Source of the DNA: Candidatus Lindowbacteria bacterium RIFCSPLOWO2_12_FULL_62_27
GTDB lineage: Bacteria; Lindowbacteria; 2-12-FULL-62-27
Assembly (NCBI GenBank): GCA_001784175.1
Contig: MFPR01000044.1
Coordinates: forward strand, 44,491 to 64,490
DNA length: 20,000 nucleotides
Reading direction: 5' to 3'
Part shown: piece after piece, positions 579 through 20,000 of the stretch
Position numbering within the stretch: position 1 is the stretch's first letter
Layout of the letters: the number at the start of each line of letters is the position of its first letter
Program-made: the position numbers and the translations under genes
The notes under the pieces: model-generated
Database searches by the model: none
Told to the model about the DNA's origin: nothing
What the model saw: only the letters and a program-made list of their open reading frames with translations

Positions 579-600
579 GCAGGCGTTGGTAAAATTAGGT

Positions 601-629
601 TTGACGCGCGACCGGCGCAGAGTCACAAT
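601..629 (+). promoter_or_regulatory. Putative sigma70 promoter of the sugar operon (-35 TTGACG, 17 bp, -10 CACAAT)
   Basis: TTGACG at 601-606 and CACAAT at 624-629 with a 17-bp spacer; AT-rich TAAAATTA tract at 590-597 just upstream in otherwise GC-rich DNA. Confidence 0.5.
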
Positions 630-684
630 CGGGCCCGGATCTGACGGACGGATGGTTCTCATCTCTCTTGTCGAGGGGTTGATT

Positions 685-2919: not shown

Positions 2920-2923
2920 GATC

Positions 2924-3775: not shown

Positions 3776-6183
3776 CCGGCGGGCGCTGCGCGGTCCGCGA
3801 GGGCCGGCTCGAAGTCGACGGGCGGCCGTTTTTTGTCTATTCAGGCGAAATCCATTATTTCCGCGTCGACCCCGCCGAGTGGCCCGACCGCCTGCGGAAG
3901 GCCAAACGCGCCGGGCTGAACACCGTCAGCAGCTACATTCCCTGGCGATGGCACGAGCGGACGGAGAAAAAATTTGATTTCACGGGCCGGACGCATCCGG
4001 CCAGAAACCTGGTCCGGTGGATGGACGAAATCGTCAAGGCCGGGCTTTTTTTCATCGCGCGTATCGGCCCCGTTTCCAACGCGGAACTCATCCGCGAGGG
4101 GTTGCCGGACTGGCTCATGGAAAAATACCACGAGGTCCATCTCGCCGGCCGGCCCCTGCCCGGCCTGCCGCATGTCACCATCGTCGCGTATCGCAGCCCC
4201 GTCTTCATCGAGAAAGTCTCCAACTGGTACCGCGCGCTCCTGCCGCGTCTTCTGCCGTACCACCACACCATGGGCGGGCCGATCATCCTCACGCAGATTT
4301 GCAACGAAATCGGCATGGTGCACTGGCTCAACCGCGCGGCCGACTACTCGCCGCGGGCGGAAAACGCGTGGCGGGAATTTCTCAAAAATAAATATGGAGA
4401 CATTTCCGAACTGAACCGCGCATGGGGCGGAACCGGATCGCGAAAACGCCGGTTGGGGTCTTGGAACGCGGTGCGCCAGCCCGCAGGCGCGTTGGAGCAA
4501 ACGCGCTGGGCGGAGGCCGCCGACTGGGCGCTGTTTTATCGAGACTATTATGCCGGCTATTTCGCCGCCCTCTCCGGGCAGGCGGCAAAGGAGGGCTTCA
4601 CCGGACCGTACATCGCCAACATTCCGCAGTTCTGGGATCATGACGTGCGCGGGCGCGGCACGCCCGCGCCGATGACGTCGTCGCTCTTTCGGGACTTCCA
4701 GAAAAAAACGCCGGCGCCCGTGCTCTTCGGCGGCGCCTACCAGATGCGCCGGCTCGACATCGACAATTTCCACGACATCGCGCTCGCCACCGAAAGCGTG
4801 AATCTCCTGCACCCCGACGGCGACGTGCCCTCCATCTGCGCCGAGCTTCAGACCGGCATCATGCGCGACCGGCCGCGGCTCTACGGGACCGACGTCGAAC
4901 TCAACCTCAAAACGTCGACGGCCCACGGGCTCGGCGGCGTCAACGGATACATGTTCTGCGCGGGTACGTCCACCGATGACATGGGGGCCTTCGGCCGGTA
5001 TCACGAATGGCAGGCGGCGGTCGACTCGAAAGGCGCCGCCCGGCCGCATTTTGCGGAGATGGAAAGGTTCGGCCGATGGGTGAAGACCGCCGGCCGGAAT
5101 CTGGCCGGATGGAAAAAATCGCCGGACGTGGCGCTGGGAATTTATCTTCCGTATTTTTCAACGGAGTACTGGAAGGGCGAATGGGTGGAACGGCTGGCGT
5201 TTCGCCGGGACCACTACTGGTTTGACGGGCTCGCCCGGTTGCTTGCGCTCAACAATTACAATTTTTCCTTCGTCGACATCTGCCGGTCCCTGGACATATC
5301 CACGCTCGTCGCGGCGCATCTTTCCAGAAGTCTCTGGGTCTTCACCACCGAATGTATGGACGCCGAAACGCAGCGCCGGCTCGTCGGTTTCGTCTCCGCC
5401 GGCGGAAGGCTTTTCATCGGGCCATGGATGCCCGCCTTTGATTTGACCGGCAAGCCCTGTTCGATTTTGTCCGAGGCCTTGGGCGTGAAACGCGTCGAGG
5501 TCCTTGAGGAAAAACGGGTGCGGATCAACGGCGGCGAGGGATGGTTTGACGGAAACCTCGTCTGCGCGCATTCCCCGGGGTCGGCTACGCTTCTCAAAAG
5601 CGCGGCCGGCCGGCCGGTGGCGTGGATCCGGAAGGCCTCGCGCGGCGCCCGGGGCGCGGCGCTTTTTTGCGGGATCCCCCTGCACCACACGTTCGATCCC
5701 GCCATCCCCATGGTCCGGCGTCTGGCGGAGGCGTTGGCGGGCGAGCCTCGTGTCCGGGCACAGTCGGATGCGGACCTCCCGCTCGTCTGGCGCGGAACCG
5801 ATCGTGAGGGGCTCTTGCTGGTCCCCAATTACCACGACCGGCCGGTCCGCGCGCGCCTCCGGATAAACTCGCCCGCATTTCACACGGATTGGCTGACCCT
5901 GCCCCCGCGCAAGGCATACTTTTTCCCGGTGAACTTTCCGCTGGACAACGGCCTGACGGTCACCGCGACCGGCGAGCTGCTTGACGTCAACCCGGCGCCG
6001 GGCGGCTGCACGCTGGTTTTCGATTTTCCGGCCGGCCGGAACCTGCTGGCGGTCGGCCGCAATCGCCGGCGCCTTGATTTCGTTTACGGCGTGCAGGACC
6101 GTCAGCGCTGCGATGTGAAGATTCGAATTCGAGCGGGAACAGATCAACCCCCTCTCCCCCGGAGGGGGAGAGGGTCGGGGTGA
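3772..6183 (+). CDS. Cytoplasmic glycoside hydrolase family 35 (GlmA-like GH35 with GH42-like insert/trimerisation region), beta-glycosidase or transglycosylase
   Basis: Start likely ATG 3772 (ATGA overlap with the permease stop). GH35 N-terminus SGEIHYFRV..EWPDRLRKAKRAGLNTVSSYIPWRWHE..FDFTG; GGPIILTQICNE (acid/base Glu 4306-4308); CAELQTG (probable nucleophile Glu 4843-4845); GH42-like FLKNKYGDISELNRAWG; no signal peptide. Confidence 0.85.
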   Translation: MTGGRCAVREGRLEVDGRPFFVYSGEIHYFRVDPAEWPDRLRKAKRAGLNTVSSYIPWRWHERTEKKFDFTGRTHPARNLVRWMDEIVKAGLFFIARIGPVSNAELIREGLPDWLMEKYHEVHLAGRPLPGLPHVTIVAYRSPVFIEKVSNWYRALLPRLLPYHHTMGGPIILTQICNEIGMVHWLNRAADYSPRAENAWREFLKNKYGDISELNRAWGGTGSRKRRLGSWNAVRQPAGALEQTRWAEAADWALFYRDYYAGYFAALSGQAAKEGFTGPYIANIPQFWDHDVRGRGTPAPMTSSLFRDFQKKTPAPVLFGGAYQMRRLDIDNFHDIALATESVNLLHPDGDVPSICAELQTGIMRDRPRLYGTDVELNLKTSTAHGLGGVNGYMFCAGTSTDDMGAFGRYHEWQAAVDSKGAARPHFAEMERFGRWVKTAGRNLAGWKKSPDVALGIYLPYFSTEYWKGEWVERLAFRRDHYWFDGLARLLALNNYNFSFVDICRSLDISTLVAAHLSRSLWVFTTECMDAETQRRLVGFVSAGGRLFIGPWMPAFDLTGKPCSILSEALGVKRVEVLEEKRVRINGGEGWFDGNLVCAHSPGSATLLKSAAGRPVAWIRKASRGARGAALFCGIPLHHTFDPAIPMVRRLAEALAGEPRVRAQSDADLPLVWRGTDREGLLLVPNYHDRPVRARLRINSPAFHTDWLTLPPRKAYFFPVNFPLDNGLTVTATGELLDVNPAPGGCTLVFDFPAGRNLLAVGRNRRRLDFVYGVQDRQRCDVKIRIRAGTDQPPLPRRGRGSG

Positions 6184-6188
6184 GGGGG
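6148..6188. repeat. REP/BoxC-like palindromic element (minus strand CCCTCACCCCGACCCTCTCCCCCTCCGGGGGAGAGGGG)
   Basis: Perfect 11-bp stem CCCTCTCCCCC (6150-6160), GGA loop, GGGGGAGAGGG (6164-6174), plus tail TCGGGGTGAGGG. Matches the widespread CCCTCACCCNNNCCCTCTCCCNNNNGGGAGAGGG repeat pattern. Confidence 0.75.
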
Positions 6189-6190
6189 AG

Positions 6191-8242
6191 ATGTCGGCCC
6201 TGAATCGCCTCCCTCACCAGCTTCCAACGAAACCTGCTTTCGGCCGGTGGCTGATCGTGGTGGCTGCCATGGGCCTCTTCGGGTGTTCGTCGCCGCCGCA
6301 GGCGCCGCAAAAACTGACGGCCCTGCCGGACACCCGGCTCAAAGGAGAATGGTACACGCTGTACCGTGAAACATTTGACACGGGCGCGATCGACTCCGCC
6401 TGGGAACAGTTTCAGGGACCCGATATTGCCCGCCTGGCCCCCGCGCCCGGCGGATGGTTCATGGCCAACGGCCGCCTCATCGGAAAAAGCTCTGTAGCGA
6501 TCGGACTGAAGAATCGAGTGCCCCTCGGCGGCGACATCGACATCACCCTCCGGTTCGCCCACCCGATTCAACTGCGCCGGTGGGGACTGGCCATCGGCAA
6601 GACGGGATTTCAGGACGGGTATGGCCTCATGGTGGACCGCGCGGAAATGCGGCTGACCCGAAACGGCCTGAGAAATCTCGCGGACGCCGCCGACATCGGC
6701 CGGCTGCCGCCCGCGGAATACGCCGAGTTGCGGCTGGTCCGGGAGGGCGGCCGAATCACGGTCCACGTGGACAACTTTGAGGCGATCAATTTTTGGGATT
6801 ATACACCGATCCTTTCGCCCGACGCGGAATCTTTGACGCTGGTCTGCGAGGAATCGAAACTTGAAATCATGGAACTGAAAATCCTCGGAAAAACGGTTCG
6901 GGAGCCTGACGCCGAAATTCAAAAAATGGCCGAAGATTTCCGGCAAGGGTCCGCCGCCCTGTTCCTCGACGGCCATCGCAGGCTCAAACGGCCTTCCCCG
7001 GATCAGCCGCGAATGGATGTCATGGCCCTGCAGGCCGCCTGCGCGCTGGAGGATTATGGCGCGCTGGAAAACGCGCCGAAAGACTTCCCCCATCTGCCGG
7101 ACGGGTTCACGGAATTTTTGCGGTTCCACGCGCTCACGCGGCTGGGCCGCGCGGCGGAGACGGAGGAACGGGCGCTCAAAGAATGGATGGCCGATCCGCA
7201 GACGCTCAAGAATCTCCGGCTGGTTTTGCTCGAAAAAATAGCGGCGGCCAGACTGAAAAACGACGCCGGTACCGTCGACTCGGTCTATGATCTCCTTGCG
7301 CGTCTCTTCAAGAACGCCCGGGAATTTCTTGTGCCGGTGCAGTTGGAACAGGTGATTGAACTGGCCAATGCGGGCCGCAGGGAAAAGTGTTACGAAATTC
7401 TGGAGGCGCTCACAGCCGGCGGGATGGCCGGACAAAAGCAGGACTTGGCGCGGATCGTCATCGCCCGGGCCTCCATCGCAAAACGGCTGGACGACCGCCA
7501 GACCTTTGAGCGCGTGTTCAAATTCGCGGGGGAGCAATTGAAGGGCGTTCCCGGCGGAATCAGCTGGCTGTATTTGCTCAAGGGCGAGTGGCTCATGAGC
7601 CGGGGCGAGCATGAGGAGGCGCTGGCATGGCTGGACAAGGTCATCAAGCTTTTCTCCAACGAGCCCGAACCTGTTCTGTGGGCGCATACCAACAGGGCAA
7701 AAATCCTGAGCAGGGAGGGAAGCCTCGAGCCGTTTCTGGCGGAGTTCCGGGAGGTCGCCGAAAACGACGCGTACCAGAAACCCGCCGCCATCGTCGAGGA
7801 GATTCTTCACCGGGCGGAGGAAAAAAAATCGCGCGCGGCGGAGGAGGTCGCCCTTCGGGCGCGGACCGGCATCCGGTCCATCACGGTCTCATCCGAGGAG
7901 GTCGGCTTGGGCGGGCCTTATGCCATGGTCGACGGCTCGCTCAAAACGCGGTGGGGATCGGAACACGGAATCGATCCCGGCTGGATCGTCATCGAATTTC
8001 AAACGCTTCATGAATTCAGCCGCATCACCCTTCACTGGGAAGTGGCGGCGGCCCGCGAGTACGATCTTCTGATCTCATCCGACGGCGCCCGCTGGGAAAC
8101 CGTCGCAACAGAATCGGCCGGCCTCGAAGGCGCCGTGCGGTCGTTCGAACTCGAGCGAAAAGTCGGCCGGTTCCTGAAAGTATGGATGAAGCGGCGCGCG
8201 ACGCAATGGGGGTATTCCATCTGGGAAATAGAGTGGTCATGA
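6191..8242 (+). CDS. Putative lipoprotein: N-terminal beta-sandwich-like region, central TPR-like helical region, C-terminal F5/8 type C (discoidin/CBM32) domain
   Basis: Hydrophobic stretch ending in lipobox LFG-C. Central helical repeats (LYLLKGEWLMSRGEHEEALAWLDKVIKLF). C-terminus VSSEE..AMVDGSLKTRWGS..WIVIEF..ITLHWE..AREYDLLISSDGARW..GRFLKV..WGYSIWEIE is typical of F5/8C. Confidence 0.75.
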   Translation: MSALNRLPHQLPTKPAFGRWLIVVAAMGLFGCSSPPQAPQKLTALPDTRLKGEWYTLYRETFDTGAIDSAWEQFQGPDIARLAPAPGGWFMANGRLIGKSSVAIGLKNRVPLGGDIDITLRFAHPIQLRRWGLAIGKTGFQDGYGLMVDRAEMRLTRNGLRNLADAADIGRLPPAEYAELRLVREGGRITVHVDNFEAINFWDYTPILSPDAESLTLVCEESKLEIMELKILGKTVREPDAEIQKMAEDFRQGSAALFLDGHRRLKRPSPDQPRMDVMALQAACALEDYGALENAPKDFPHLPDGFTEFLRFHALTRLGRAAETEERALKEWMADPQTLKNLRLVLLEKIAAARLKNDAGTVDSVYDLLARLFKNAREFLVPVQLEQVIELANAGRREKCYEILEALTAGGMAGQKQDLARIVIARASIAKRLDDRQTFERVFKFAGEQLKGVPGGISWLYLLKGEWLMSRGEHEEALAWLDKVIKLFSNEPEPVLWAHTNRAKILSREGSLEPFLAEFREVAENDAYQKPAAIVEEILHRAEEKKSRAAEEVALRARTGIRSITVSSEEVGLGGPYAMVDGSLKTRWGSEHGIDPGWIVIEFQTLHEFSRITLHWEVAAAREYDLLISSDGARWETVATESAGLEGAVRSFELERKVGRFLKVWMKRRATQWGYSIWEIEWS

Positions 8243-8272
8243 AGGAATCACATTCTTGAACGGGGGTGCGGC

Positions 8273-9382
8273 ATGGCTGAGGTGACATTGAAGGGCGTGG
8301 CGAAAATCTATGAGGGCGGGGTGCAGGCGGTCCACGACGTGAATCTGACCATTCACGACAAGGAATTCATGGTCCTCGTCGGGCCGTCCGGGTCAGGCAA
8401 ATCAACCGTGCTCCGGATGGTCGCCGGGCTTGAGTCCATTTCCGAGGGCGACATCTCCATCGATGGCCAGGTCGTAAACCATCAGCCGCCCAAGAAAAGG
8501 GACATCGCCATGGTCTTTCAGGACTATGCGCTCTACCCCCACATGAACGTCTTTGACAACATGGCCTTCGGCCTCAAAGTCCAGAAATATCCGATGGCCG
8601 AAATCCGGCGGCGCGTGGACGAGGCGGCGGCCATCCTGGAACTGACGCATCTTTTGGAGCGAAAACCGAAAGCGCTGTCCGGGGGTCAGCGGCAGCGCGT
8701 GGCGGTGGGCCGGGCGATCGTGCGGAAACCCAAAGTTTTTCTCTTCGACGAACCGCTGTCGAATCTCGACGCCAAGCTGCGCACGCAGATGCGGACGGAA
8801 ATAAAAAAAATCCACGCCAGGCTCGGCGCCACCATTATCTACGTGACCCACGACCAGGTCGAAGCCATGACCATGGGAGACCGCATCACGGTCATGGACC
8901 ACGGGAAAGTTCAGCAGATCGATACGCCGATCAACCTCTACCAGCGGCCGGTCAACCGCTTCGTCGCGGGGTTTCTCGGATCCCCGCCGATGAACTTCAT
9001 CCCTTGCAGAACGGTCGATGAGGGAGGGGCGATTTATCTGGATGAGGGAACCGCCAAGATCCGCGTGCCGCAGAAATGGGCCGGGCCGCTGCGCGCCGCC
9101 GGACGCATCGGCCAGGAAGTCATCCTGGGAATCCGGCCGGAAAACATCGGCGACAAGCTCTACGTCCAGCCGAAATACCCGGACAGCGTGATGACGGCGA
9201 CGGTCGACGTGGTCGAACCGATGGGGTCTGAAGTGTACTGCCTGTTGAAATCCGACAAGAACAACATTCAGGCCAGGTTCGGCGGGATGAGCCGCGTGCA
9301 GCCCAACCAGGAGATCGACATCGTATTCGATCTGGATGCAATCCACTTTTTCCATCCGGAAACCGGCGCGGCCATTGTATGA
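8273..9382 (+). CDS. Sugar ABC transporter ATP-binding protein (MalK/MsmX/UgpC family)
   Basis: Walker [11 protein letters not shown]-loop [13 protein letters not shown], signature [14 protein letters not shown], Walker [17 protein letters not shown]-loop [15 protein letters not shown]-terminal TOBE region (LGIRPE...VVEPMGSE). Confidence 0.95.
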
Positions 9383-9400: not shown

Positions 9401-10846
9401 ATGGGCATTTGGAAATTACTCGACGCCGGCCGGGAAAAATTGCGGCTGGCCCAGGCCTCCCATGACCTCGGCTGGCGGGGGCTGCTGCTGGCTTCCTTTT
9501 TTCTGTTCTGGGCCGGCGTTTTCTTTGCCGTGGACCGGACGCTGTTTTATCCATGGATGGTGTTCCTCCCTCTGGCCGCCGCGCTTCTGTATGATCCGTC
9601 CTGGATATGGGCGGCAGGCCTGGGAATGTCGGCCGTCGGCATGGCGGCGGCGGTCGGCGAAGGGCTGTTCGCAACAACCAGGACGGGATGCGCCGCCGCT
9701 TTTCTCTTTTCTCTTTCGTCTCTTTGGATCGCCAGGGGAATCACAAGATCGATCGGACGGATCGACGACGCCCGCGTGATGGGCCGCGTCGCCGTCCGGG
9801 AGGCGGAGGAACGGCTGACGGAACTCGAGCGGGTCAGCGCGCCGGAATTGTTCAAACACATGGAACAGCTCCGACTCAGACTTCAAAAATATGACCGGCT
9901 CAACCGCCTCCTGCTGGACGTGCCCGAGGGCGAGGGCCTGACGGAGGTGGCGGCGTTTTATGTGACGGAGGCCGAGAACCTGATCGGGAGGGGGCACGGC
10001 GAATTTTATATAGAAAGCGACGAAGACAACATCCGGCTGGCCGTGGTCGGCGAGGGCGGAAAGGTTGACCCGAACGCCCGGCGCTGCCGGACCGTCGAGG
10101 ACGCTGAAAGCCTCGCCGGATATTCCAAATGGTTGCTGCGCCCGCGGTCGGCCCTGGCGGAGCACAGCGGCGAAATCGCCACGCCGGTCGTTGTGGAAAA
10201 CAGGCCGATCGGAATGATGAGGGTCGTCGCCCGGCGGGGAGAATTGTCGGAAACGGATTTGCGGACGCTGGACGGCCTCTCGATCCTCGCGTCGATATCC
10301 GTGATGAACTCGATCCTCTATAAAAGAATGGAACACCTCGCGAGAACCGACGGTCAGACAGGGTTGGGAAAGAGAATCGTGCTCGACGAAGCCCTGGCGG
10401 AGGAAATCCTTCGCGCGGAGCGGCATGGCCTGCGGCTCTCGGTCGCCATGCTCGACATCGACCATTTTCGGAATTTCAACAATAAATACGGACACCTCAC
10501 CGGCGACTGGGTCCTACGGGAACTCGGGCGGTACATCCGCGAAACGCTGCCGCCGTACGCCGTTTCGGTCCGGTGGGGCGGCGAGGAGTTCGTCGTGCTT
10601 CTTCCGAACGAGGACGCGCAAAGCGCCGCCAAACGCATCGAGGGATTGCAGCAGATTCTCGCCGAACAGATGCGCATCCCGCCGGAAATCGCCGATGCGC
10701 CGGAGGAACGCGTCACCTTCAGTGCCGGAATCGCGCAGTTCCCGGAACATGCCCGGAAGGCCGACCTCATGGTCCAGTTGGCGGATGAGGCGCTCTATCG
10801 CGCCAAAAATTCCGGCCGGAACCGCGTCGTGATCTATGGGTCCTAA
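9401..10846 (+). CDS. Membrane-anchored diguanylate cyclase (TM region, coiled coil, GAF-like, GGDEF)
   Basis: N-terminal hydrophobic segments; GAF-like IATPVVVENRPIGMMRV; TDGQTGL, MLDIDHFRNFNNKYGHLTGD, RWGGEEF, VTFSAGIA, ADEALYRAKNSGRNRV. No RxxD I-site. Confidence 0.9.
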   Translation: MGIWKLLDAGREKLRLAQASHDLGWRGLLLASFFLFWAGVFFAVDRTLFYPWMVFLPLAAALLYDPSWIWAAGLGMSAVGMAAAVGEGLFATTRTGCAAAFLFSLSSLWIARGITRSIGRIDDARVMGRVAVREAEERLTELERVSAPELFKHMEQLRLRLQKYDRLNRLLLDVPEGEGLTEVAAFYVTEAENLIGRGHGEFYIESDEDNIRLAVVGEGGKVDPNARRCRTVEDAESLAGYSKWLLRPRSALAEHSGEIATPVVVENRPIGMMRVVARRGELSETDLRTLDGLSILASISVMNSILYKRMEHLARTDGQTGLGKRIVLDEALAEEILRAERHGLRLSVAMLDIDHFRNFNNKYGHLTGDWVLRELGRYIRETLPPYAVSVRWGGEEFVVLLPNEDAQSAAKRIEGLQQILAEQMRIPPEIADAPEERVTFSAGIAQFPEHARKADLMVQLADEALYRAKNSGRNRVVIYGS

Positions 10847-12041
10847 GTTCTCGTTTCTTCTGGCCGCCGCGTGGGTTGCAGTTCCATGGATCGAGACCCG
10901 GCCCGGGCCGAAGGGAGAGGCCTCCGGACGGGGGCGGACGCTTCTGCTGTGGACAATCGCCGGGATCGGCCTTGCGATTGGATCAACCGCGCCGCATCCC
11001 CTCTGGTGGATCGTGTGGGCGGCGCTCGTGTGGGCGCTCGAAATGGAACACCGGCAGGCCAGGGAGGGCCTCCGGGATCTGGCCGAGGCGCCGGCGATTA
11101 AATTGCGGAGAAAAATCCAGCCCTTGGAGGATAAGTGCCGCGCGCTCCAACATGAGATCCACGGTCTGCAGGCCGGCGTCTCCGCCGCGGTGGGGCGGTA
11201 TCTCGCCATGAAGGATTTTCATCGGTCCCTCCGCGCCGAGGATCTGGGCCAGGCGGTGATCGACAAGATGCTCAAATTGACCGGCGCGAATGAGGCGGCG
11301 GTCGGCATTTGGAACAACGACGGCCGCGCCATCCTTTTGCTCGGCCATCCCGCGGACAGGGTCGGCGACATTTTGGATCACGGCGCATGGAAACGCGAAG
11401 TCGAGGTCGAAAGCGTCCGCGTCCGGATGGCGGCGAATGGTCCGGGAAGTACGGTGGCGCTGGAAGAATCACTCAAAGAACTGATCCTGCCCCTGCCGGC
11501 GCTCTGGCGACAGAGCATCCTGTATGCGCGGGTCGAGGAGATGGCCATTACGGACCGCCTGACAGGCCTCTACGTCCACCGCCTGTTCGCCGAACGATTA
11601 CGCCAGGAAATCGCGAGAGTCGCTGAAACCGCGCGGCCCCTGAGTTTGATCATGGTCGATGTCGACCATTTCAAACGCTTCAACGACACCTTCGGCCATC
11701 TCCTGGGCGACCGGGTCCTGCGGGCCATCGGGCAGACATTCATTGCCGAAGTGAGAAAGTCCGATTTCGCCGCGCGCTACGGCGGCGAGGAAATGGCGCT
11801 CATCCTTCCGGAAACGCCCTTGAGCGGCGCGCTCCTGAAGGCCGAGCGCCTGCGGAAGGCCGTCGAAAAAATAAAAATATCCCATCAGGACCAGATGCTC
11901 GGCGTCACCGCCAGTTTCGGCGTCACCGAGTGGTCCAGAACCGATCAGTCGCCGGTCGACTTCATCCGCCGCGCCGACCAGGCGCTCTACCGCGCGAAAG
12001 AGAACGGGCGAAACAGGGTCGAGATTTCGGAGGCCGGATAA
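10836..12041 (+). CDS. Membrane-anchored diguanylate cyclase (GGDEF domain, GGEEM variant, RxxD I-site)
   Basis: N-terminal TM segments; TDRLTGLY, MVDVDHFKRFNDTFGHLLGD, RKSD-FAAR-YGGEEM, VTASFGV, ADQALYRAKENGRNRV; overlaps the upstream gene by 11 bp. Confidence 0.88.
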   Translation: MGPKFSFLLAAAWVAVPWIETRPGPKGEASGRGRTLLLWTIAGIGLAIGSTAPHPLWWIVWAALVWALEMEHRQAREGLRDLAEAPAIKLRRKIQPLEDKCRALQHEIHGLQAGVSAAVGRYLAMKDFHRSLRAEDLGQAVIDKMLKLTGANEAAVGIWNNDGRAILLLGHPADRVGDILDHGAWKREVEVESVRVRMAANGPGSTVALEESLKELILPLPALWRQSILYARVEEMAITDRLTGLYVHRLFAERLRQEIARVAETARPLSLIMVDVDHFKRFNDTFGHLLGDRVLRAIGQTFIAEVRKSDFAARYGGEEMALILPETPLSGALLKAERLRKAVEKIKISHQDQMLGVTASFGVTEWSRTDQSPVDFIRRADQALYRAKENGRNRVEISEAG

Positions 12042-12047
12042 AACCGC

Positions 12048-13331
12048 TCACCGCGCCGCGGCGGTCTGGGCGCGGATCTTGACGGCCTGCTCCATGTAGA
12101 CTTCAGCCTCGATCAGACGGTTCATTTTGACGTACAGGTTCGAAACGGTTTCCATCAGGCTCGCCACGGCGGGATGATCGGGGCCGAGCACCCTCTGCTT
12201 GATGTCCAGGGCGAGGAGAAATGTGTGCTCTGATTCGGTGTATCGCCTCTGCGCAAGCAACCGCAGGGCCTCGCTTTCATAGAACTCCGCATACATTAAA
12301 GGGGTGGAGTCTGGATGGGACGAAGGTGGTTGGTCGAGGTTTATCCGCCACAGCTTCAACGTGCGACGCTCCAGAAGATCAATCGCCGCAAGGTGGCGGC
12401 CGTCCGGCGAAAATTCAACCCAGTCCACTGGGCCCGCGCACGGAATCGTCTGCAACAGAATTCCACGGCGCGCATCCCACATCTCGATCCATCCCCGGCT
12501 TACCGTCGGCCGGCTTAGCGCGGTCCCGCCGATGCCCGACGCCAGCCGGACGCCGGTCGCATCAAAGGCCAGCGATCGCACGTTCAACCGGTCGTTCTCC
12601 CTCTTTCCCAGCGTCCGCGCAGGAGCGCTCGTGTCCGGATCGATCAGGCGGATCGACAGGCCGCTGCCGGCCGCAAGTTTGCGGCCCGTGGGGAAAAACG
12701 CGAGGTCCCGGACCCATCCCCGGTGATGGACCGTTCGGAGACGCGCTCCCGTTACCGCATCCCATATCGTGACGGACCCCGTGACGATGCCGGCGGCGAG
12801 GCGCGCGCCGTCCGCAGAGAATTCCATTGCGGTGATCACGCCCTTTCGGTCGGCCTGAAACGTGCGGATCGTTTCACCCGTGGCGGCGCCCATCAGAAGC
12901 ACCCGGTCGCCGCCGGACGGCGCGGCCAGAAATCGGCCGTCCGGCGAAAAAACCACCGGCGCATCCGGATCGGCGCGGTCCAGCGTCCCGAGCAGTTTTC
13001 CTCGCGACCATGTCCGCAGTTTCGTTTCCTGCCCCGACCGCGTCACCACCTGCCGCCCGTCGGGGGAAACCGCGATCACCCGCTCCTCCGCGCCGAGCGG
13101 CCGGCCCTCGTCGGTGATCGTCCAGCGGCTCAGGACCTGCCCGCTTTCGGGGTCCATGATGTCGAACGTCGCGGGCGCGGTGGAGACAAGGAGATGGCCG
13201 GAGGGGAGAAATTTCGCCCACTCGGCGGGCGGGGGTTCTTTGAACTCAACAGGCTCGTACGATTCCGCGACGACGGCAGGACTCCAGATGAGAATCATCA
13301 ACGCGAACGCCGCGCAGAAACGTCCCGTCAC
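12048..13331 (-). CDS. Exported WD40 beta-propeller protein with C-terminal TPR
   Basis: Signal peptide MTGRFCAAFALMILIWSPAVVA/E; repeated WD40-like motifs (VSPDGRQV, FSPDGRFLA, FSADGARLA..VTIWD, FFPTGRKLA, FSPDGRHLA..LKLW); TPR ALDIKQRVLGPDHPAVASLMETVSNLY. GTG start overlaps the upstream TGA (GTGA). Confidence 0.8.
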   Translation of the reverse strand: MTGRFCAAFALMILIWSPAVVAESYEPVEFKEPPPAEWAKFLPSGHLLVSTAPATFDIMDPESGQVLSRWTITDEGRPLGAEERVIAVSPDGRQVVTRSGQETKLRTWSRGKLLGTLDRADPDAPVVFSPDGRFLAAPSGGDRVLLMGAATGETIRTFQADRKGVITAMEFSADGARLAAGIVTGSVTIWDAVTGARLRTVHHRGWVRDLAFFPTGRKLAAGSGLSIRLIDPDTSAPARTLGKRENDRLNVRSLAFDATGVRLASGIGGTALSRPTVSRGWIEMWDARRGILLQTIPCAGPVDWVEFSPDGRHLAAIDLLERRTLKLWRINLDQPPSSHPDSTPLMYAEFYESEALRLLAQRRYTESEHTFLLALDIKQRVLGPDHPAVASLMETVSNLYVKMNRLIEAEVYMEQAVKIRAQTAAAR

Positions 13332-14245
13332 GGGATGTCCCCGAAACGGATCGTCAGGCTGAACCGGTGCGTGTCGCCGAAAACGCCCAGCGGCACAAAG
13401 GCGTAGTCGACGTCCACCATCTTGAATCGAACGCCGACACCGGCCGTCAGCCCGTCGTCCGCGTCCTTGTTTTCCAGCGTGTAGCCCAGCCGGAGGGAAA
13501 AATGCCGCAGCAGCGTGTACTCGGCGCCGAAATTGATGAAGAGATCGTCATAGCGAACCTTGTTCAGATCCAGGCTCAGAACCACGTTGCGCTCCGGCAG
13601 AAACTTCAGGGCGGTCCCGACCCGGAAGGACCTCGGCAGGGGTTCTTCGACCGTCAGGTATTTGATGCCGGACCCATAGTTCTTGACGGAGGCGCCGATC
13701 GTCCAGAAGTCCATCGGCCGGACCTGGATTCCGAAATCGCCCGTGACCGCTGTGCCGCCGTGCTCGTAAATCCGGCTTGAAATGAACCGGCCCAGGGCGC
13801 CGACCGACACGCCATTCGTGATTTCCCGGCCATAACCGATGTCGAACGCCATGTCCCGCGCGCCGAAAAATCCCAGCACCTGACCCGCCTGCCCGGACGT
13901 CAGAGTCGTCCGCTCAATGTCCTCGATCGTCATGACGTTCGCGCTGATCCCCCAGTTGCCATAGGGCGTCGGAAAGGCCAACGCCAGGTAATTCTGGTCG
14001 ATGTCGGCGATGTACTGGTTGTTCTGGAACGTCACTTGGGCCGTCCGAACCCTTCCGAGTCCCGCCGGGTTCCAGTACATGCTCGTGGCATCGTCCACAA
14101 CCGCAGTGTAGGCGCCGCCCATCGCAACCGCTCGCGCGCCCTGCCCAATGCGCAGAAATTCCAGCGAAGTGGATCCCGGTTCCGCCCATGCGGGGAGCGC
14201 CGGCAAGAACAACAGGAAAGACAGGATGAACTTTGCAGGCCTCAT
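13328..14245 (-). CDS. PorV/PorQ-family (UPF0164-like) outer-membrane beta-barrel protein
   Basis: Signal peptide; hallmark FLRIGQGARAVAMGGAYTAVVDDATSMYWNPAGL; amphipathic beta strands; terminal VDYAFVPLGVFGDTHRFSLTIRF. ATGA overlap with the giant gene's stop. Confidence 0.85.
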   Translation of the reverse strand: MRPAKFILSFLLFLPALPAWAEPGSTSLEFLRIGQGARAVAMGGAYTAVVDDATSMYWNPAGLGRVRTAQVTFQNNQYIADIDQNYLALAFPTPYGNWGISANVMTIEDIERTTLTSGQAGQVLGFFGARDMAFDIGYGREITNGVSVGALGRFISSRIYEHGGTAVTGDFGIQVRPMDFWTIGASVKNYGSGIKYLTVEEPLPRSFRVGTALKFLPERNVVLSLDLNKVRYDDLFINFGAEYTLLRHFSLRLGYTLENKDADDGLTAGVGVRFKMVDVDYAFVPLGVFGDTHRFSLTIRFGDIP

Positions 14246-17200
14246 TTAATGATCGCCACCTTCTTGGTGACGCGCTGGCCCGTCTTGTTGTCCGTGATCA
14301 CCATGAGATACACGCCGCTGGCCACCATCTGGCCGCCGATCGGGTCGATCGTCGATAGGTCCCACTGAAACCGGCCGGCGCCCGTGACTTTGCGGTTGAA
14401 CAACTCGCGCCCCGCAACCGTGAACACCCGCACGGTGATGTCGGCGCTGATGTTGTCCACGATGATGCCGGTCGTGAAATCGCCGGGCAGGGGCGGCTTG
14501 CCGTTTTCGTCAATGCCGTCATACGGAATGTACGGGTTCGGATAGACGATGACTTTCGAAAGATCGCTCGCCGCAAGTTTCCCCGTGTCCGGGAAAACGG
14601 CGTAAAACGAGAAATGGAACGGAGCGCCGATGACGGCGTTCTGGCCCGCATCCCAGGCGCTGCCCGTCACCGCCTCCCAACCGCCGGTCGCTTCGTTCAG
14701 CGTATGGAACTTCATCGCAGACAGCGGCAGGCCGGCCAGGTCGCTTCCCGACGCCGGCTTCCACAAAAGCCGCACGGCGCCGAACGCGCTCCGCTCGCTG
14801 CCCACGTCCGCGCCGGTTTCGGTGTAGAGATTGATTTCAAACGCGGTGAACCGCATCCGCGTGATGCGATCGTCCGTGCCGAGTTTCAAATCCTTGGAAT
14901 TGCCCGCCCGCTGGATGGTGAACAGGCTGCCGACATTGGACGGCTGCAGATCGACCGCGAGCTTGTCGCCATAGGCCTTCTTGGTGGAGTCGTAGACGGG
15001 CGTGGAAATCATGGTCATCACCGTGTCCGAGAAATACACCGCGCCGCGCCACGTGTCGTACTGCGACAGCTCCGGAAATGTGATCGGCGCGCCGTTGCCG
15101 GCGACCATCATGTAGTCGACCTTGTAGATGTCGTAGGTGTCCATCAATAGCCGGCCGGTCGTGTCCATGGCCTTCAAAATAAACCGGTTCTGGCCCTTCA
15201 CCAGCGGGACGGTGGCGGTCGCCGAAAAAATCCGGCTGTCGGCGCCCACGGCAAGGCCCGTCGCGGTGTCTGAATTCTGAGTGATCATCAGAGTGGCGAT
15301 CGGAACGTACGACCGCACCTCCGCCGTGAGCGTCGTGACGACGTCCGTGTCGACCGGCTTGCGCGACTTGAATTTCGCGGTCGGCGGCGACGTGTCGATC
15401 ACGATGGCGCGCGTGTCCTCACCGGCGAATCCGGAGGCGCCGACCGCCCGGGCGGTGATCGTCTGCGTGCCGGTGCCTGTGAAGGTTCGGGTCGTCATGA
15501 AGGCGCCCATGGAATCGACGGGGGCCGTGTCCGTCACATCCACGCCGTTGATCCGGAAGAGGACGGAGGTCGGGGTGTCAAACGTTGCCAGCACGGTGCC
15601 TTTAATCGTGATCGTCAGCGAATCCGTGATGACGCCGGAATCGGGCGCCGTGATCTGCACAACCGGCGGCGCGCCCGAATCGACGCGGAATGTCCGGTAC
15701 GCCGTCGTTTCCACGTTGCCGGATCGGTCCTGCGCGCCCACGCGCCAGTAATAGGTGTTCGCGACAAATCCGTTCAGAGGCGTGTGGCTGGTGCCGGACG
15801 TGACCTTGCTGTCCACCATCGTCACGAACAGGGAATCGCGCGCGACCTGCACCGTATAGGTGTCCCCGGTCCCGCTCCACGTGAGTTTCTGGAACGAGTC
15901 CGTGGTGGTCGCCGAATCCGACGGACTGGCCAGAGCCACGGTCACCGCCGTGTCGATGACGAGCGCGCGGGCGGCGCTTGTCTCGGCATTGCCCGCGGCA
16001 TCCTGCGCCGTCACGCGCCAGTAATACGTGTCCGACCCGTAGCCGCTCGACGGCGTGTACGTCACCGCCGTCGTCGTCTTGCTGTCCACGACCGTTCCGA
16101 ATCCGGCCGTCTTCGACACCTGCAGCGTGTACGTGTCGCCGGTCCCGTTCCATGTAAACGTCGGCGTCGTGTCATTCGTCTCCACGCTGTCCGCCGGGCT
16201 TGTCTGACTCACCGTCACGCCCGTGTCGATGAACAACGCGCGCGCGGCCGACGTCTCAAAGTTCCCCGCATCGTCGCTCGCGATCACTCGCCAGAAATAG
16301 GTGTCTGCGGCGTACCCGCCGGCCGGCGTGTACGTCAACGACGCCGTCGTCTTGCTGTCCACCAGCACGCCGAAGGCGCTCGACTTCGATACCTGCAGCG
16401 CATACGTATCGCCTGTGCCGTTCCATGTGAACGTGGGCGTCGTGTCGTTTGTGCCGGTGGTATCCGCCGGGGTCGCCAGACTCACCGTCACGCCGGTGTC
16501 GATGAACAACGCGCGCGCGGCTGACGTCTCGTGGTTCCCCGCATCGTCGCTCGCGATCACGCGCCAGAAATAGGTGTCCGCCGAATAGCCGGTGGTGGGC
16601 GTGTACGCCAGAGCCGCCGGCGTCTTGCTGTCCACGAGCGTTCCGAATCCGGCCGTCTTCGACACCTGCAGCGTGTACGTGTCCCCCGTCCCGCTCCACG
16701 TGAACGTGGGCGTTGGATCGTTCGTCTCCGCGCTGTCCGACGGGCTCGTCAGGCTCACGGCGATCGACGTGTCCACAACCAGAAGACGCACGAGGCTTGT
16801 GTCGTAACTGCCGGCGGAAGTGCTCGCGATCACGCGCCAGAAATACGTGTCCGCCGGATAGCCGGCCGCCGGCGTGTAGGTCACGGCGCCCGTCGTCGCG
16901 CTGTCCGCCAGCGCGCCGAACGCGCTCGATTTCGAGACCTGAATCGTGTAGGTGTCCCCCGTCCCGCTCCACGTGAACGTGGGCGTTGTGTCGTTCGTCT
17001 CCGCGCTGTCCGGCGGGCTTGCCTGACTCACCGTCACGCCCGTGTCGATGAACAACGCGCGCGCGGCCGACGTCTCAAAGTTCCCCGCGTCGTCGCTCGC
17101 GATCACACGCCAGAAATACGTGTCCGCGCCGTATCCCCCCGACGACGTGTACGTCAACGACGCAGTCGTCTTGCTGTCCACCACCGTGCCGAATCCGCCC

Positions 17201-20000
17201 GATTTCGACACCTGGATCGTGTAGGTGTCCCCCGTCCCACTCCACGTGAACGTGGGCGTTGTGTCGTTCGTCTCCGCGCTGTCCGATGGATTTGCCAGAC
17301 TCACCGTCACGCCCGTGTCGATGACCAGCACGCGGGCGGCCGACGTCTCGTAGTTTCCCGCGTCATCGAGCGCGACCACCCGCCAGAAGTACGTATCCGC
17401 GCCGTATCCGCCGGCCGGCGTGTACGTCAACGACGCCGTCGTCTTGCTGTCCACCACCGTGCCGAAGCCGCCCGCTTTCGACACCTGCAGCGTGTACGTG
17501 TCGCCGGTCCCGCTCCACGTGAACGTGGGCGTCGTGTCGTTCGTCTCCGCGCTGTCCACCGGGCTTGTCTGGCTCACCGTCACGCACGTGTCGATAAACA
17601 ATACACGCGCGGCCGGCGTCTCAAAGTTCCCCGCGTCGTCGCTTGCGATCACGCGCCAGAAATATGTGTCCGCGGCGTACCCGCCGGCCGGCGTGTACGT
17701 CGTCGACGACGTCGTCTTGCTGTCCACCACCGTTCCGAATCCGCCCGATTTCGACACCTGCAGCGTGTACGTGTCGCCGGTCCCGCTCCACGCGAACGTC
17801 GGGGTCGTGTCGTTCGTCTCGGCGCTGTCCACCGGGCTTGCCAGACTCACCGTCACGCTCGTGTCGATGACCAGCGCACGCGCCGCCGCCGTCTCGTGGT
17901 TCCCGGCGTCGTCGCTCGCAATCACCCGCCAGAAATACGTGTCCGCACCATATCCGCTCGACGGCGCGTACGTCGTTGACGACGTCGTCTTGCTGTCCAC
18001 CATCGCGGCGAAGTCGCCCGCTTTCGACACTTGCAGCGTGTACGTGTCCCCCGTCCCGCTCCACGTGAATGTGGGCGTTGTGTCGTTCGTCTCCGCACTG
18101 TCGGCAGGGCTTGCCAGGCTCACCGTCACGCCCGTGTCGATCACCAGAACCCGCGACACCGTCGTGTCGTGATTGCCTGAAATCGTGCCGGCCGTTACAC
18201 GCCAGTAATAGGTGTCGGCCGGGTAGCCGCCGCTCGGCGTGTAGGTCACGGAAGAGGTGGTCTTGCTGTCGAATATGGAGCCGAACGCGCTGCTCTTTGA
18301 AATCTGAATCGTGTACGTGTCGCCGTTCCCGCTCCACGTGAAGCTCGGCGTTGTATCGTTCGTCTCGGCGCCCTCCGCCGGGGTCGACAGGCTCACGGAC
18401 ACCGCCGTGTCGATGATCAACAGGCGTACAGACGTCACACCGGTATTTCCGGCCTGGTCCGCCACGACGACGCGCCAATAGTACGTATCGGCGGCATAGT
18501 AGGCGGCCGGCGTGTAGGTGGCCCCGCCGGTGGTCTGGCTGTCGAAGATCGCGCCGAACCCGGCGGTTTTCGAAACTTGGAGCGTATAGGTGTCGCCATC
18601 CCCGCTCCACGTGAAGGTCGGCATCGTGTCGCTTGTCTTGGTCGAATCCTCCGGACTGGTCTGGCTCACGGTCACGCCGGTGTCGAGGTAGAGAACGCGG
18701 CTTGCGCTCGTCTCATGATTTCCCGCGGCATCGATCGCGGCGACCCGCCAGTAATAGGTTTCCGCCGCATACCCGGTCGACGGCGTGTACGTCACGGCGG
18801 ACGAGGTCAGACTGTCAGCGAGGGCGCCGAACGCCGCCTGCTTTGAAATCTGAAACACATAGGTATCGCCCGCGCCGCTCCACGAAAACGCCGGCGTCGT
18901 GTCGTTCGTCCGGGTCGAATCGGCGGGCGACGTGACGCTCACCGTCACACTCGTGTCGAGAACGATCATGCGGACGGCCGTCGTCTCGAAATTCCCCGCC
19001 TCGTCCCATGCGATCACGCGCCAATAGTACGTGTCCTCCGGATAGCCCGACGGCGTGTACGTCAGCGCGGCCGTCGACGTACTGTCACGGAGCGTGCCAA
19101 ACGTGCCGCTCATGGATATCTGAATCTGGTAGGTGTCGCCTGTTCCGCTCCAGGCAAAGGCCGGCGTTGTGTCGTTCGTCCGGGTCGTATCCGCCGGGCT
19201 GGTCAAACTGACGGTGACGATCGTGTCGATCAACAGAAACCGCGATGCGGACGTTTCGAAATTTCCCGCCTTGTCGCCGGCGATCACGCGCCAGAAATAT
19301 GTGTCCGCGCCATAACTGCTCGACGGCGAATAGCTGGTTCCATTCGTGGTCGACGCCTCATACAAAACGGCAAACGTGCTGACCTTCGCAATTTGAATCG
19401 TATACGTGTCGCCTGTCCCGCTCCACGTGAACGTCAGCGTCGTGTCGTTCGTCTCGGCTGAATCTGACGGGGCCGTCAAACTCACGCTTACGATCGTGTC
19501 CACCTTGATCATCCGCGCGGCTGTCGTCTCGTAGTTCCCTGCCGTGTCCTTCGCCACCACCCGCCAATAGTACGTGTCCGTCGCATACCCGGGACTCGGC
19601 GTGTACCCCAGCCCCCCCGTCGACTGGCTGTCGTAAATCGTCCCGAAGGACGTGCTCGTCGAAATCTGAAACGTGTACGTCTCTCCATCCCCCGTCCACG
19701 TGAAGCTCGGCGTCGTGTCGTTCGTCTCGTACGTGTCCGACGGACTCGTCAAACTCACGCTCACCTGCGTGTCCACCACCACCCTCCGCAACACCGTCGT
19801 CTCGTAGTTCCCCGCATCGTCCCACCCCACCACTCGCCAATAGTACACCGCAGGCGCGTACCCCGGACTCGGCGTGTATGTCGCGCTCGTCACCGTCGCC
19901 ACATCGTGGATCGTCGCAAACGTCGATAATTTCGATACCTGCACCGTGTACGTGTCCCCCGTCCCGCTCCACGTAAAGGCCGGCGTCGTGTCGTTCGTCT
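14242..20000 (-). CDS. Giant repetitive surface protein/adhesin (5'-truncated; >1,900 aa) with Ig/FN3-like repeats and a T9SS type-A/FlgD-like C-terminal sorting domain
   Basis: Frame stays open to the window edge (TNDTTPAFTWSGTGDTYTVQVS...), so the GTG at 19944 is internal. 16 repeats L.SP.D..ETNDTTPTFTWSGTGDTYTLQVSK...Y.ADTYYWRV.A.D.AGN.ET, two further Ig-like domains, an HFS motif, and C-terminal VIVYPNPY...VRVFTVAGREL...WDL...VASGVYLMVI...KKVAIIK. Confidence 0.88.
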   Translation of the reverse strand, partial: TNDTTPAFTWSGTGDTYTVQVSKLSTFATIHDVATVTSATYTPSPGYAPAVYYWRVVGWDDAGNYETTVLRRVVVDTQVSVSLTSPSDTYETNDTTPSFTWTGDGETYTFQISTSTSFGTIYDSQSTGGLGYTPSPGYATDTYYWRVVAKDTAGNYETTAARMIKVDTIVSVSLTAPSDSAETNDTTLTFTWSGTGDTYTIQIAKVSTFAVLYEASTTNGTSYSPSSSYGADTYFWRVIAGDKAGNFETSASRFLLIDTIVTVSLTSPADTTRTNDTTPAFAWSGTGDTYQIQISMSGTFGTLRDSTSTAALTYTPSGYPEDTYYWRVIAWDEAGNFETTAVRMIVLDTSVTVSVTSPADSTRTNDTTPAFSWSGAGDTYVFQISKQAAFGALADSLTSSAVTYTPSTGYAAETYYWRVAAIDAAGNHETSASRVLYLDTGVTVSQTSPEDSTKTSDTMPTFTWSGDGDTYTLQVSKTAGFGAIFDSQTTGGATYTPAAYYAADTYYWRVVVADQAGNTGVTSVRLLIIDTAVSVSLSTPAEGAETNDTTPSFTWSGNGDTYTIQISKSSAFGSIFDSKTTSSVTYTPSGGYPADTYYWRVTAGTISGNHDTTVSRVLVIDTGVTVSLASPADSAETNDTTPTFTWSGTGDTYTLQVSKAGDFAAMVDSKTTSSTTYAPSSGYGADTYFWRVIASDDAGNHETAAARALVIDTSVTVSLASPVDSAETNDTTPTFAWSGTGDTYTLQVSKSGGFGTVVDSKTTSSTTYTPAGGYAADTYFWRVIASDDAGNFETPAARVLFIDTCVTVSQTSPVDSAETNDTTPTFTWSGTGDTYTLQVSKAGGFGTVVDSKTTASLTYTPAGGYGADTYFWRVVALDDAGNYETSAARVLVIDTGVTVSLANPSDSAETNDTTPTFTWSGTGDTYTIQVSKSGGFGTVVDSKTTASLTYTSSGGYGADTYFWRVIASDDAGNFETSAARALFIDTGVTVSQASPPDSAETNDTTPTFTWSGTGDTYTIQVSKSSAFGALADSATTGAVTYTPAAGYPADTYFWRVIASTSAGSYDTSLVRLLVVDTSIAVSLTSPSDSAETNDPTPTFTWSGTGDTYTLQVSKTAGFGTLVDSKTPAALAYTPTTGYSADTYFWRVIASDDAGNHETSAARALFIDTGVTVSLATPADTTGTNDTTPTFTWNGTGDTYALQVSKSSAFGVLVDSKTTASLTYTPAGGYAADTYFWRVIASDDAGNFETSAARALFIDTGVTVSQTSPADSVETNDTTPTFTWNGTGDTYTLQVSKTAGFGTVVDSKTTTAVTYTPSSGYGSDTYYWRVTAQDAAGNAETSAARALVIDTAVTVALASPSDSATTTDSFQKLTWSGTGDTYTVQVARDSLFVTMVDSKVTSGTSHTPLNGFVANTYYWRVGAQDRSGNVETTAYRTFRVDSGAPPVVQITAPDSGVITDSLTITIKGTVLATFDTPTSVLFRINGVDVTDTAPVDSMGAFMTTRTFTGTGTQTITARAVGASGFAGEDTRAIVIDTSPPTAKFKSRKPVDTDVVTTLTAEVRSYVPIATLMITQNSDTATGLAVGADSRIFSATATVPLVKGQNRFILKAMDTTGRLLMDTYDIYKVDYMMVAGNGAPITFPELSQYDTWRGAVYFSDTVMTMISTPVYDSTKKAYGDKLAVDLQPSNVGSLFTIQRAGNSKDLKLGTDDRITRMRFTAFEINLYTETGADVGSERSAFGAVRLLWKPASGSDLAGLPLSAMKFHTLNEATGGWEAVTGSAWDAGQNAVIGAPFHFSFYAVFPDTGKLAASDLSKVIVYPNPYIPYDGIDENGKPPLPGDFTTGIIVDNISADITVRVFTVAGRELFNRKVTGAGRFQWDLSTIDPIGGQMVASGVYLMVITDNKTGQRVTKKVAIIK
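15680..20000 (-). repeat. Coding tandem repeat array, 273-bp (91-aa) period, at least 16 units
   Basis: Equivalent GTGTCGTTCGTC-like anchors at 15896, 16169, 16442, 16715, 16988, 17261, 17534, 17807, 18080, 18353, 18626, 18899, 19169, 19442, 19715 and 19988. All spacings are 273 bp except one of 270 bp. Confidence 0.95.

What the first reader, a model, noticed from the sequence alone, without database searches (positions are those of the whole stretch)
14590..14850. HFS motif just before the sorting domain: candidate GAIN/ZU5-like autoproteolytic release site
Seen: ...KFHTLNEATGGWEAVTGSAWDAGQNAVIGAPF-HFS-FYAV (HFS at 14608-14616) lies between the Ig stalk and the C-terminal sorting domain. 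Known: His-x-Ser/Thr motifs drive N-O acyl-shift self-cleavage in adhesion-GPCR GPS/GAIN domains (HL/T) and in Nup98 and PIDD (HF/S). Inference: the protein may cleave itself at F/S, leaving the stalk non-covalently tethered to the CTD/barrel and sheddable by force.
Basis: partly seen in the sequence, partly recalled or inferred. Interest (0 to 1): 0.7.

Follow-up and report, generated by a model that had tools for sequence, protein, structure and literature searches.

The report
Self-cleaving-type domain before outer-membrane anchor
A giant surface protein of an uncultured groundwater bacterium carries, just before its type-IX-style secretion tail, a domain with the predicted fold and the His-Phe-Ser turn of a recently described self-cutting family, so it likely cuts itself while the tail likely stays clipped into a barrel protein encoded by the next gene, which would make the long outer part releasable.

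Summary
In detail: HFS is at 14608-14616 on the minus strand. It closes a ~183-aa domain (14575-15123) between an Ig stalk and a T9SS type A-like tail. In the AlphaFold model (pLDDT 88.7) HFS sits in the turn before the last strand. The best fold matches for that domain include the CD97 and CELSR1 GAIN domains and ankyrin ZU5 (Z 7.4-8.3, modest). This fits the MAIN domains of a 2026 preprint (Brogan and Rudner), which cleave at HF|S. In relatives, 96 of 107 such domains placed before a tail keep H[FL][ST]. The preprint text I read does not describe this anchor. A PorV/PorQ-family barrel gene overlaps the stop codon, and 11 of 11 such genes in this genome have one adjacent. The genome has a divergent SprA-like translocon and no detectable PorU-family peptidase. 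Caveats: cleavage, docking and force release are untested, this copy has an atypical Pro two residues before the His, and 5 of 11 paralogues lack the His. The scan found the same cassette before on other DNA. Verdict: a new variant of a known kind.

The parts
14608..14616 (-). His-Phe-Ser motif; predicted scissile bond between Phe (14611-14613) and Ser (14608-14610)
   Evidence: Sequence. Model residues 170-172 lie between strands E163-166 and E173-178.
14575..15123 (-). MAIN-type (GAIN-B/ZU5-like) beta-sandwich, about 183 aa
   Evidence: AlphaFold2 with a 90-row alignment. VIA-align matches residues 1-183 to CD97 GAIN, CELSR1 GAIN and ankyrin ZU5. No Pfam hit.
14590..14610 (-). Last strand of the domain (SFYAVFP), which would start the C-terminal fragment and hold it in the sandwich
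   Evidence: DSSP strand E173-178. Its role is inferred from GAIN/MAIN.
14245..14571 (-). T9SS type A-like C-terminal sorting domain, closest to the PorZ and PorU tails
   Evidence: TIGR04183 28.8 bits against a cut-off of 23. VIA-align Z 12.1 to PorZ 5m11 and 10.2 to PorU 6za2.
15124..19998 (-). Ig-like stalk: 16 repeats of about 91 aa plus further Ig-like sequence; runs off the contig end
   Evidence: Pfam Big_13 in 15 stretches; 16 Y[YFW]WRV motifs spaced 90-91 aa apart.
13328..14245 (-). PorV/PorQ-family outer-membrane barrel gene (305 aa); its ATG overlaps the TGA of the cargo gene (ATGA at 14242-14245)
   Evidence: NF033709 196 bits against a cut-off of 90; PF19572 over its cut-off; the overlap is read from the sequence.

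Best explanation
The HFS closes a predicted MAIN-type (microbial GAIN/ZU5-like) domain that likely cuts its own chain between Phe and Ser, while the downstream sorting tail likely stays bound to the PorV/PorQ-like barrel encoded by the next gene, so the giant outer part would hang on the cell by one non-covalently inserted beta-strand and could be shed. Step 1 (inferred): export through Sec and the genome's single SprA/Sov-like translocon, guided by the tail. Step 2 (inferred from the PorZ-PorQ and type B CTD-PorP precedents and from gene pairing): the uncleaved tail docks in its own barrel. Step 3 (shown for other MAIN domains, inferred here): after folding, the His activates the Ser, and an N-O acyl shift and hydrolysis give a 122-aa strand-plus-tail piece and an N-terminal piece of at least 1796 aa. 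Step 4 (hypothesis only): pulling on the stalk extracts the strand and releases the outer part, which probably ends in a sugar-binding, glycanase-like head. My odds: fold and family 0.9; this copy cleaves 0.7; docking on the adjacent barrel 0.75; force as the trigger 0.4.
For: Fold: model pLDDT 88.7, with 96 and 89 over residues 161-180. The rows that align to residues 1-183 are CD97 GAIN (Z 8.3, rmsd 4.0, 143 aligned; Z 8.2, 148 aligned), CELSR1 GAIN (Z 7.8), ankyrin ZU5 (Z 7.4 and 7.8) and two unnamed axonemal chains. The match ends at CD97 residue 540/541, about ten residues after its cleavage residue S531 (PMC12519206, passages); our Ser172 is 11 residues from the end. Motif: in 150 representatives, 178 of 218 domains have H[FLM][ST]. 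Of the 107 placed directly before a C-terminal tail, 96 have H[FL][ST] and 106 keep S/T. The same profile finds SLH-anchored proteins, the preprint's canonical layout; three carry a Pfam ZU5 hit, and HFS aligns in register (hhalign probability 97.8). Anchor: 11 of 11 domain-plus-tail genes in this genome have an adjacent barrel gene, against 5 of 25 tail genes without the domain. Tail and barrel similarities co-vary across 16 pairs (Spearman 0.57; 0 of 5000 permutations reach it). Export: an 1826-aa SprA/Sov-like ORF at G000:C20:84307-89784. No C25/PorU-family peptidase was found in G000, while the search rang in 24 of 61 genomes.
Against: No cleavage, binding or expression was measured. The Z-scores of 7.4-8.3 lie in the range the tool calls common, and the domain could not be folded alone. 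This copy alone among 230 aligned rows has Pro two residues and Phe one residue before the His (usually V/T/I/L and N/T/S/D), which could distort the turn. In this genome 5 of 11 tail-linked paralogues replace the His with G, K, S, T or N. Ankyrin ZU5 shares the fold and is, from my recall, not self-cleaving. The motif counts come from hits chosen by a profile that contains the motif and include seed proteins. In G016 and G059 a barrel follows tail genes with the domain (12 of 17) and without it (12 of 16) alike, so the barrel belongs to the tail, not to this domain. No direct sequence link to B. subtilis YfkN was obtained. The signal peptide is not in the window.
Confidence: 0.6

Rival explanations
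1. The domain has the GAIN/ZU5 fold, but this copy is an uncut structural spacer between stalk and tail, and the HFS is inherited without activity.
For: Pro and Phe just before the His are unique among 230 rows. 5 of 11 paralogues lack the His. The preprint says 'nearly all' tested domains cleaved and leaves one of the five in its Fig. 2G out of the list of cleaved ones.
Against: H, F and S are all intact in a protein with only 8 His. The four closest homologues keep HLS. Model confidence at the turn is high.
Confidence: 0.2
2. The domain cuts itself, but as a built-in substitute for the missing PorU peptidase: the cargo parts from its tail and barrel without force and is secreted, so the cut is a maturation step and not a mechanical fuse.
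For: Of 61 genomes, 25 carry such tails. The domain sits before a tail in 0 of 10 with a strong C25 peptidase match and in 10 of 15 without one (7 of 12 families). Two of these families (G030, G040) were not in the profile's seed.
Against: In the preprint the fragments co-purify and co-elute and part only in SDS or heat. The pattern is confounded by lineage and by a profile seeded from C25-negative genomes. C25 is wider than PorU.
Confidence: 0.15
3. HFS is a chance tripeptide in an Ig-like linker.
For: No Pfam or PDB sequence match for the domain. The single-sequence model was unfolded here.
Against: The motif is conserved at this position in distant homologues. The alignment-based model folds confidently and matches GAIN/ZU5.
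Confidence: 0.02

Closest known systems
MAIN (Microbial Autoproteolysis INducing) domains, e.g. Bacillus subtilis YfkN (Brogan and Rudner, bioRxiv 10.64898/2026.05.12.724683; read parts 1-4 of 7 plus term searches of the main text; supplements closed)
   Same: GAIN-B-like beta-sandwich, HFS in the turn before the last strand, placed between a large adhesion/enzyme ectodomain and a C-terminal surface anchor.
   Different: The anchors named there are sortase signals, wall-binding domains and SLH domains. The main text has 0 occurrences of 'type IX', 'T9SS', 'PorV', 'FlgD' or 'ZU5' and frames MAIN as a possible Gram-positive counterpart of autotransporters, though it lists Bacteroides and Spirochetes among carriers. 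Here the anchor is a T9SS-like tail with a dedicated outer-membrane barrel. The supplementary domain tables may list such tails.
Bacterial ZU5-superfamily autopeptidase domains (Zhang et al. 2012, PMC3482391; read section 8 and passages)
   Same: Groups ZU5, GPS and Nup96/98 domains and predicts autoproteolysis in large bacterial surface proteins with adhesion and enzyme domains.
   Different: It describes a CxH thiol motif and mostly N-terminal domains of RHS proteins. This domain has no Cys, no Pfam ZU5 hit, and sits at the C-terminal anchor.
GAIN domain of adhesion GPCRs (CD97/ADGRE5, CELSR1)
   Same: Among the best structural matches for residues 1-183; H-x-S/T before the last strand.
   Different: No helical GAIN-A subdomain, no cysteines, no 7TM receptor; the last strand leads into a sorting tail.
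PorZ-PorQ pair and type B CTD-PorP/SprF pairs of the Bacteroidota T9SS (PMC10947112 passages; PMC9143113 and PMC12618676 abstracts)
   Same: An uncleaved tail bound to its own outer-membrane barrel, often encoded next door. The tail here is closest to that of PorZ.
   Different: Here many type A-like tails each have their own PorV/PorQ-family barrel, no PorU-family peptidase is found, and a self-cleaving-type domain precedes the tail.

Membership tests
MAIN domain | GAIN-B-like beta-sandwich fold | tested here: met
   Model pLDDT 88.7. CD97 GAIN Z 8.3, rmsd 4.0, 143 aligned; CELSR1 GAIN Z 7.8; ankyrin ZU5 Z 7.4-7.8. Modest scores from a two-domain model.
MAIN domain | Conserved H-X-(S/T) in the turn before the last strand | tested here: met
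   HFS at model residues 170-172 before strand 173-178; 178 of 218 homologous domains have H[FLM][ST].
MAIN domain | Order: ectodomain, domain, C-terminal surface anchor | tested here: met
   Ig stalk, domain, T9SS-like tail. The anchor type differs from those named in the preprint.
MAIN domain | N-terminal signal peptide | tested here: inconclusive
   The gene runs off the contig. The probable 5' part on C40 begins with a hydrophobic leader, but the join is inferred.
MAIN domain | Sequence link to a tested member (YfkN) | tested here: inconclusive
   YfkN was not among the hits. SLH-anchored relatives were reached.
MAIN domain | Autoproteolysis at F|S with fragments staying associated | not testable with these tools
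   Needs expression of the domain.
Adhesion-GPCR GAIN | Helical GAIN-A subdomain and a following 7TM receptor | tested here: not met
   Only one 4-residue helix in the domain model; a sorting tail follows.
Pfam ZU5 (PF00791) | HMM match over the cut-off | tested here: not met
   No hit in this protein or the 32 aligned domains. Hits occur in three SLH-anchored relatives.
T9SS cargo (Bacteroidota type) | Type A C-terminal sorting domain | tested here: met
   TIGR04183 over its cut-off; Z 12.1 to the PorZ tail.
T9SS cargo (Bacteroidota type) | PorV/PorQ-family barrel in the genome | tested here: met
   NF033709 196 bits for the adjacent gene; 19 PorV-like ORFs in G000.
T9SS cargo (Bacteroidota type) | SprA/Sov translocon | tested here: inconclusive
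   One 1826-aa ORF matches TIGR04189 at E 1.3e-19 (69 bits, cut-off 200) and SprA_N-bearing proteins of other genomes. PF14349 itself misses it.
T9SS cargo (Bacteroidota type) | PorU sortase (peptidase C25) that removes the tail | tested here: not met
   PF01364 not found in G000 (94% complete); found in 24 of 61 genomes searched.
T9SS cargo (Bacteroidota type) | PorK/N ring and PorL/M motor | tested here: inconclusive
   The GldK model gave only partial matches and none over the cut-off in any of 61 genomes. The GldN search had no positive control. PorL/M were not searched.

The most novel reading that the evidence does not exclude
Several diderm lineages outside the Bacteroidota run a PorU-less, T9SS-like display route. 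Each giant cargo is clipped by its uncleaved tail into its own PorV/PorQ-like barrel, and a MAIN domain placed before the tail replaces the sortase as a cis-acting, load-sensitive release point. The domain precedes a tail in 10 of 15 tail-bearing genomes without a strong C25 peptidase match and in 0 of 10 with one.
Probability: 0.3. Interest if true: 0.7.

Novelty: new variant of a known kind. Interest (0 to 1): 0.48.

Why it matters
It would extend the GAIN-like release module from cell-wall anchors to an outer-membrane anchor. It also offers an answer to how cargo leaves the cell in lineages that have T9SS-like tails, barrels and a SprA-like pore but no PorU. The ~183-aa domain drops straight into the published His-domain-SUMO assay. 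This genome supplies natural variants with and without the His, which makes the catalytic requirement easy to test. The domain type and its chemistry are already published, which caps the surprise.

Tried and rejected
Single-sequence AlphaFold left the domain unfolded (pLDDT <50 for residues 1-185), and its Foldseek hits were the tail only. Foldseek on the good model was also filled by the tail and listed no GAIN in the rows shown; the GAIN matches came only from the VIA-align wide search. Sequence search of the PDB with the domain profile gave nothing meaningful. The word-indexed homologue searches found 0 and 4 proteins. The ESM Atlas gave three unnamed clusters at 0.91 and a ZU5 cluster at 0.87, with recognition 2270 below the 2300 mark, so a lead only. 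Own-genome searches for SprA_N, C25, GldN and ZU5 rang in no control. SprA and C25 were redone across 61 genomes. The first impression of 'no SprA' was rejected once a divergent copy was found. No RNA holder was listed. Contigs of four runs did not bridge the contig end, so the 5' part of the gene is not proven. I rejected the idea that the barrel is specific to this domain, because it follows tails generally in G016 and G059. Literature searches for autoproteolysis + type IX secretion + GAIN domain gave 0 papers. Searches for T9SS parts in Elusimicrobiota-type lineages gave nothing relevant in the listings.

Full report
Observation. The window is G000:C44:44491-64490, the end of a contig of a 4.39-Mb, 94%-complete genome. 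Runs holding half or more of this DNA's words are groundwater and soil metagenomes. A minus-strand ORF runs from beyond 19998 to the stop at 14242 (1918 aa). HFS is at 14608-14616 as stated and is the only H[FLM][ST] in the ORF; 0.034 HFS are expected by composition. Contigs of runs X1 (a possible source), X5 and X7 cover the site without differences.

Anatomy. The ORF holds 16 Ig-like repeats of about 91 aa, further Ig-like sequence, a ~183-aa domain with no Pfam match (14575-15123), and a C-terminal tail that passes the TIGR04183 cut-off and is closest to the PorZ tail. The next gene starts inside the stop codon (ATGA overlap) and is a PorV/PorQ-family barrel (NF033709, 196 bits against 90).

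Fold. Alone, the sequence did not fold. With a 90-row alignment the domain-plus-tail model reached pLDDT 88.7; HFS is residues 170-172, in the turn before the last strand E173-178. Against 48,161 PDB representatives the tail matched PorZ (Z 12.1) and PorU (Z 10.2). The rows covering residues 1-183 were CD97 GAIN (Z 8.3, rmsd 4.0, 143 aligned; Z 8.2, 148 aligned), CELSR1 GAIN (7.8), ankyrin ZU5 (7.4) and two unnamed axonemal chains (8.1, 7.9); a second look added AnkG ZU5 (7.8). These are middling scores. The match ends at CD97 540/541, and S531 is the CD97 cleavage residue (PMC12519206, passages). The register is therefore compatible, but only end points were given.

Conservation. A 32-row profile hit 15,788 of 1.84 billion representatives at E<=0.001. 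In the best 150, 230 domain rows aligned and 12 were dropped for gaps at the motif. Of 218, 178 have H[FLM][ST]. Of these 218, 107 lie directly before a C-terminal tail; 96 of them have H[FL][ST] and 106 keep S/T. These counts are biased upward: the profile contains the motif, and the hits include seeds and this protein's own cluster. The same profile reaches SLH-anchored proteins, three with a Pfam ZU5 hit, with HFS in register. Of 37 tail-linked hits scanned, cargoes include peptidases C39, M4, C11 and C1, GH81, lectins and Ig arrays. Named relatives are from Elusimicrobiota and Desulfatiglandales and a 'Ca. Hydrogenedentes' MAG. Against activity of this copy: it alone of 230 rows has Pro at -2 and Phe at -1 from the His. 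In this genome all 11 tail-linked paralogues keep S/T but only 6 keep the His.

Anchor and export. In G000, 11 of 11 domain-plus-tail genes have an adjacent barrel gene (10 downstream, 1 upstream), against 5 of 25 tail genes without the domain. Most of the latter look like one paralogue family, so the contrast overstates. In three genomes of the same family the downstream counts are 7 of 10 and 6 of 31; in two genomes of other families, 12 of 17 and 12 of 16 (7 internal or partial tail matches of 81 were dropped). So the barrel pairs with the tail, not specifically with this domain. Tail and barrel similarity co-vary over 16 pairs (Spearman 0.57; 0 of 5000 permutations), which shows joint duplication, not binding. 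Pfam SprA_N misses G000. However, SprA_N-bearing proteins of other genomes find one 1826-aa ORF at C20:84307-89784 (E from 3e-192 to 2e-14) that matches TIGR04189 at 1.3e-19, below the cut-off. It lies among LPS genes. No C25/PorU-family peptidase was found in G000 (24 of 61 genomes have one). Of the 25 of 61 genomes with tail matches, the domain precedes a tail in 0 of 10 with a strong C25 match and in 10 of 15 without (7 of 12 families). Lineage and profile seeding confound this.

Probable cargo. The gene's 5' part is missing. A database protein that holds the same C-terminal sequence extends it by about 380 residues of further repeats (P0020). The ORF running off the end of C40 (6120 aa) is the reciprocal best repeat match (601 bits against 219 and 250). 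Its first 2400 residues carry malectin, Glycoamylase PF10091 and CBM30 matches. If joined, the protein would exceed 8000 aa and display a glycan-active head. The join is inferred.

Mechanism. See Best explanation. The chemistry was shown for other members: cleavage between Phe and Ser of HFS, loss in Ser-to-Ala, co-purifying fragments, and release by SDS or heat (bioRxiv 10.64898/2026.05.12.724683, parts 1-4 of 7). Force-driven release is only proposed there. Precedent for uncleaved tails held by their own barrel comes from PorZ-PorQ (PMC10947112, passages) and type B CTD-PorP pairs (PMC9143113 and PMC12618676, abstracts).

Novelty. The domain type is published, and bacterial ZU5-type autoproteolysis was predicted in 2012 (PMC3482391, section 8). 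The outer-membrane form with tail and dedicated barrel is absent from the preprint's main text by term search and from my searches. The preprint's supplements were not visible and may list it. Earlier notes of this scan describe the same cassette in other genomes and tail-barrel pairs in this genome. They are not independent support, and my reading was recorded before I saw them. One of them says most relatives lost the cutting residues; my sample shows the opposite overall, though not among this genome's paralogues. Verdict: new variant of a known kind, interest 0.48.

Noticed in passing
G000:C40:104686-123045 (L052): A 6120-aa ORF with a leader and malectin, Glycoamylase (PF10091) and CBM30 matches, followed by the same Ig repeats, runs off the contig end. 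It is probably the 5' part of the window's gene.
   Followed up: partly
G000:C20:84307-89784 (L062:6304-11784): A single divergent SprA/Sov-like translocon gene among LPS genes (LptF/G, two GT9). Pfam SprA_N misses it.
   Followed up: partly
G000:C44:34165-43772 (L053): A second cassette on the same contig, opposite strand: a 2899-aa beta-helix/CBM30/Ig protein with an HLS domain, tail and own barrel. It is the closest paralogue (42% over domain plus tail).
   Followed up: partly
G000:C24:20547-23168 and C26:31606-33264: Two HFS domains followed not by a T9SS-like tail but by a short Cys-containing, Arg-rich C-terminus that recalls the CFI-box-CTERM sorting signal. This label is from memory; NCBIfam gave no hit for the C24 one.
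   Followed up: partly
G000:C9, C13 and C38 cassettes (L037-L039): The three paralogues with SFS, TFS and NFS are each paired with a barrel that has an insertion and a long C-terminal extension (about 760-840 aa after the barrel). Loss of the His coincides with this extended barrel type.
   Followed up: no
G000, about 18 genes (e.g. C13:72468-82109, C19:1-21600, C34:2-15673): A second family of tail-bearing giant proteins shares a different pre-tail module ending in an 'LTLAVGLPEYL'-like strand and mostly has no adjacent barrel.
   Followed up: no
window 586-9382: A sugar-use cluster: fused binding-protein/permease, permease, GH35/42-like glycosidase, a TPR-like protein with an F5/8 domain, and an ABC ATPase.
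   Followed up: partly
window 9401-13331: Two tandem membrane proteins with GGDEF-like C-termini (by eye) converge on a secreted WD40-TPR gene that follows the barrel gene.
   Followed up: no
G000:C2:43827-110684: An open frame of at least 22,286 aa ends in a T9SS-like tail with a barrel gene downstream.
   Followed up: no
G052 (L073, L088): Short proteins (open frames of 195 and 239 aa) end a few residues after an HFS domain, with no anchor.
   Followed up: no
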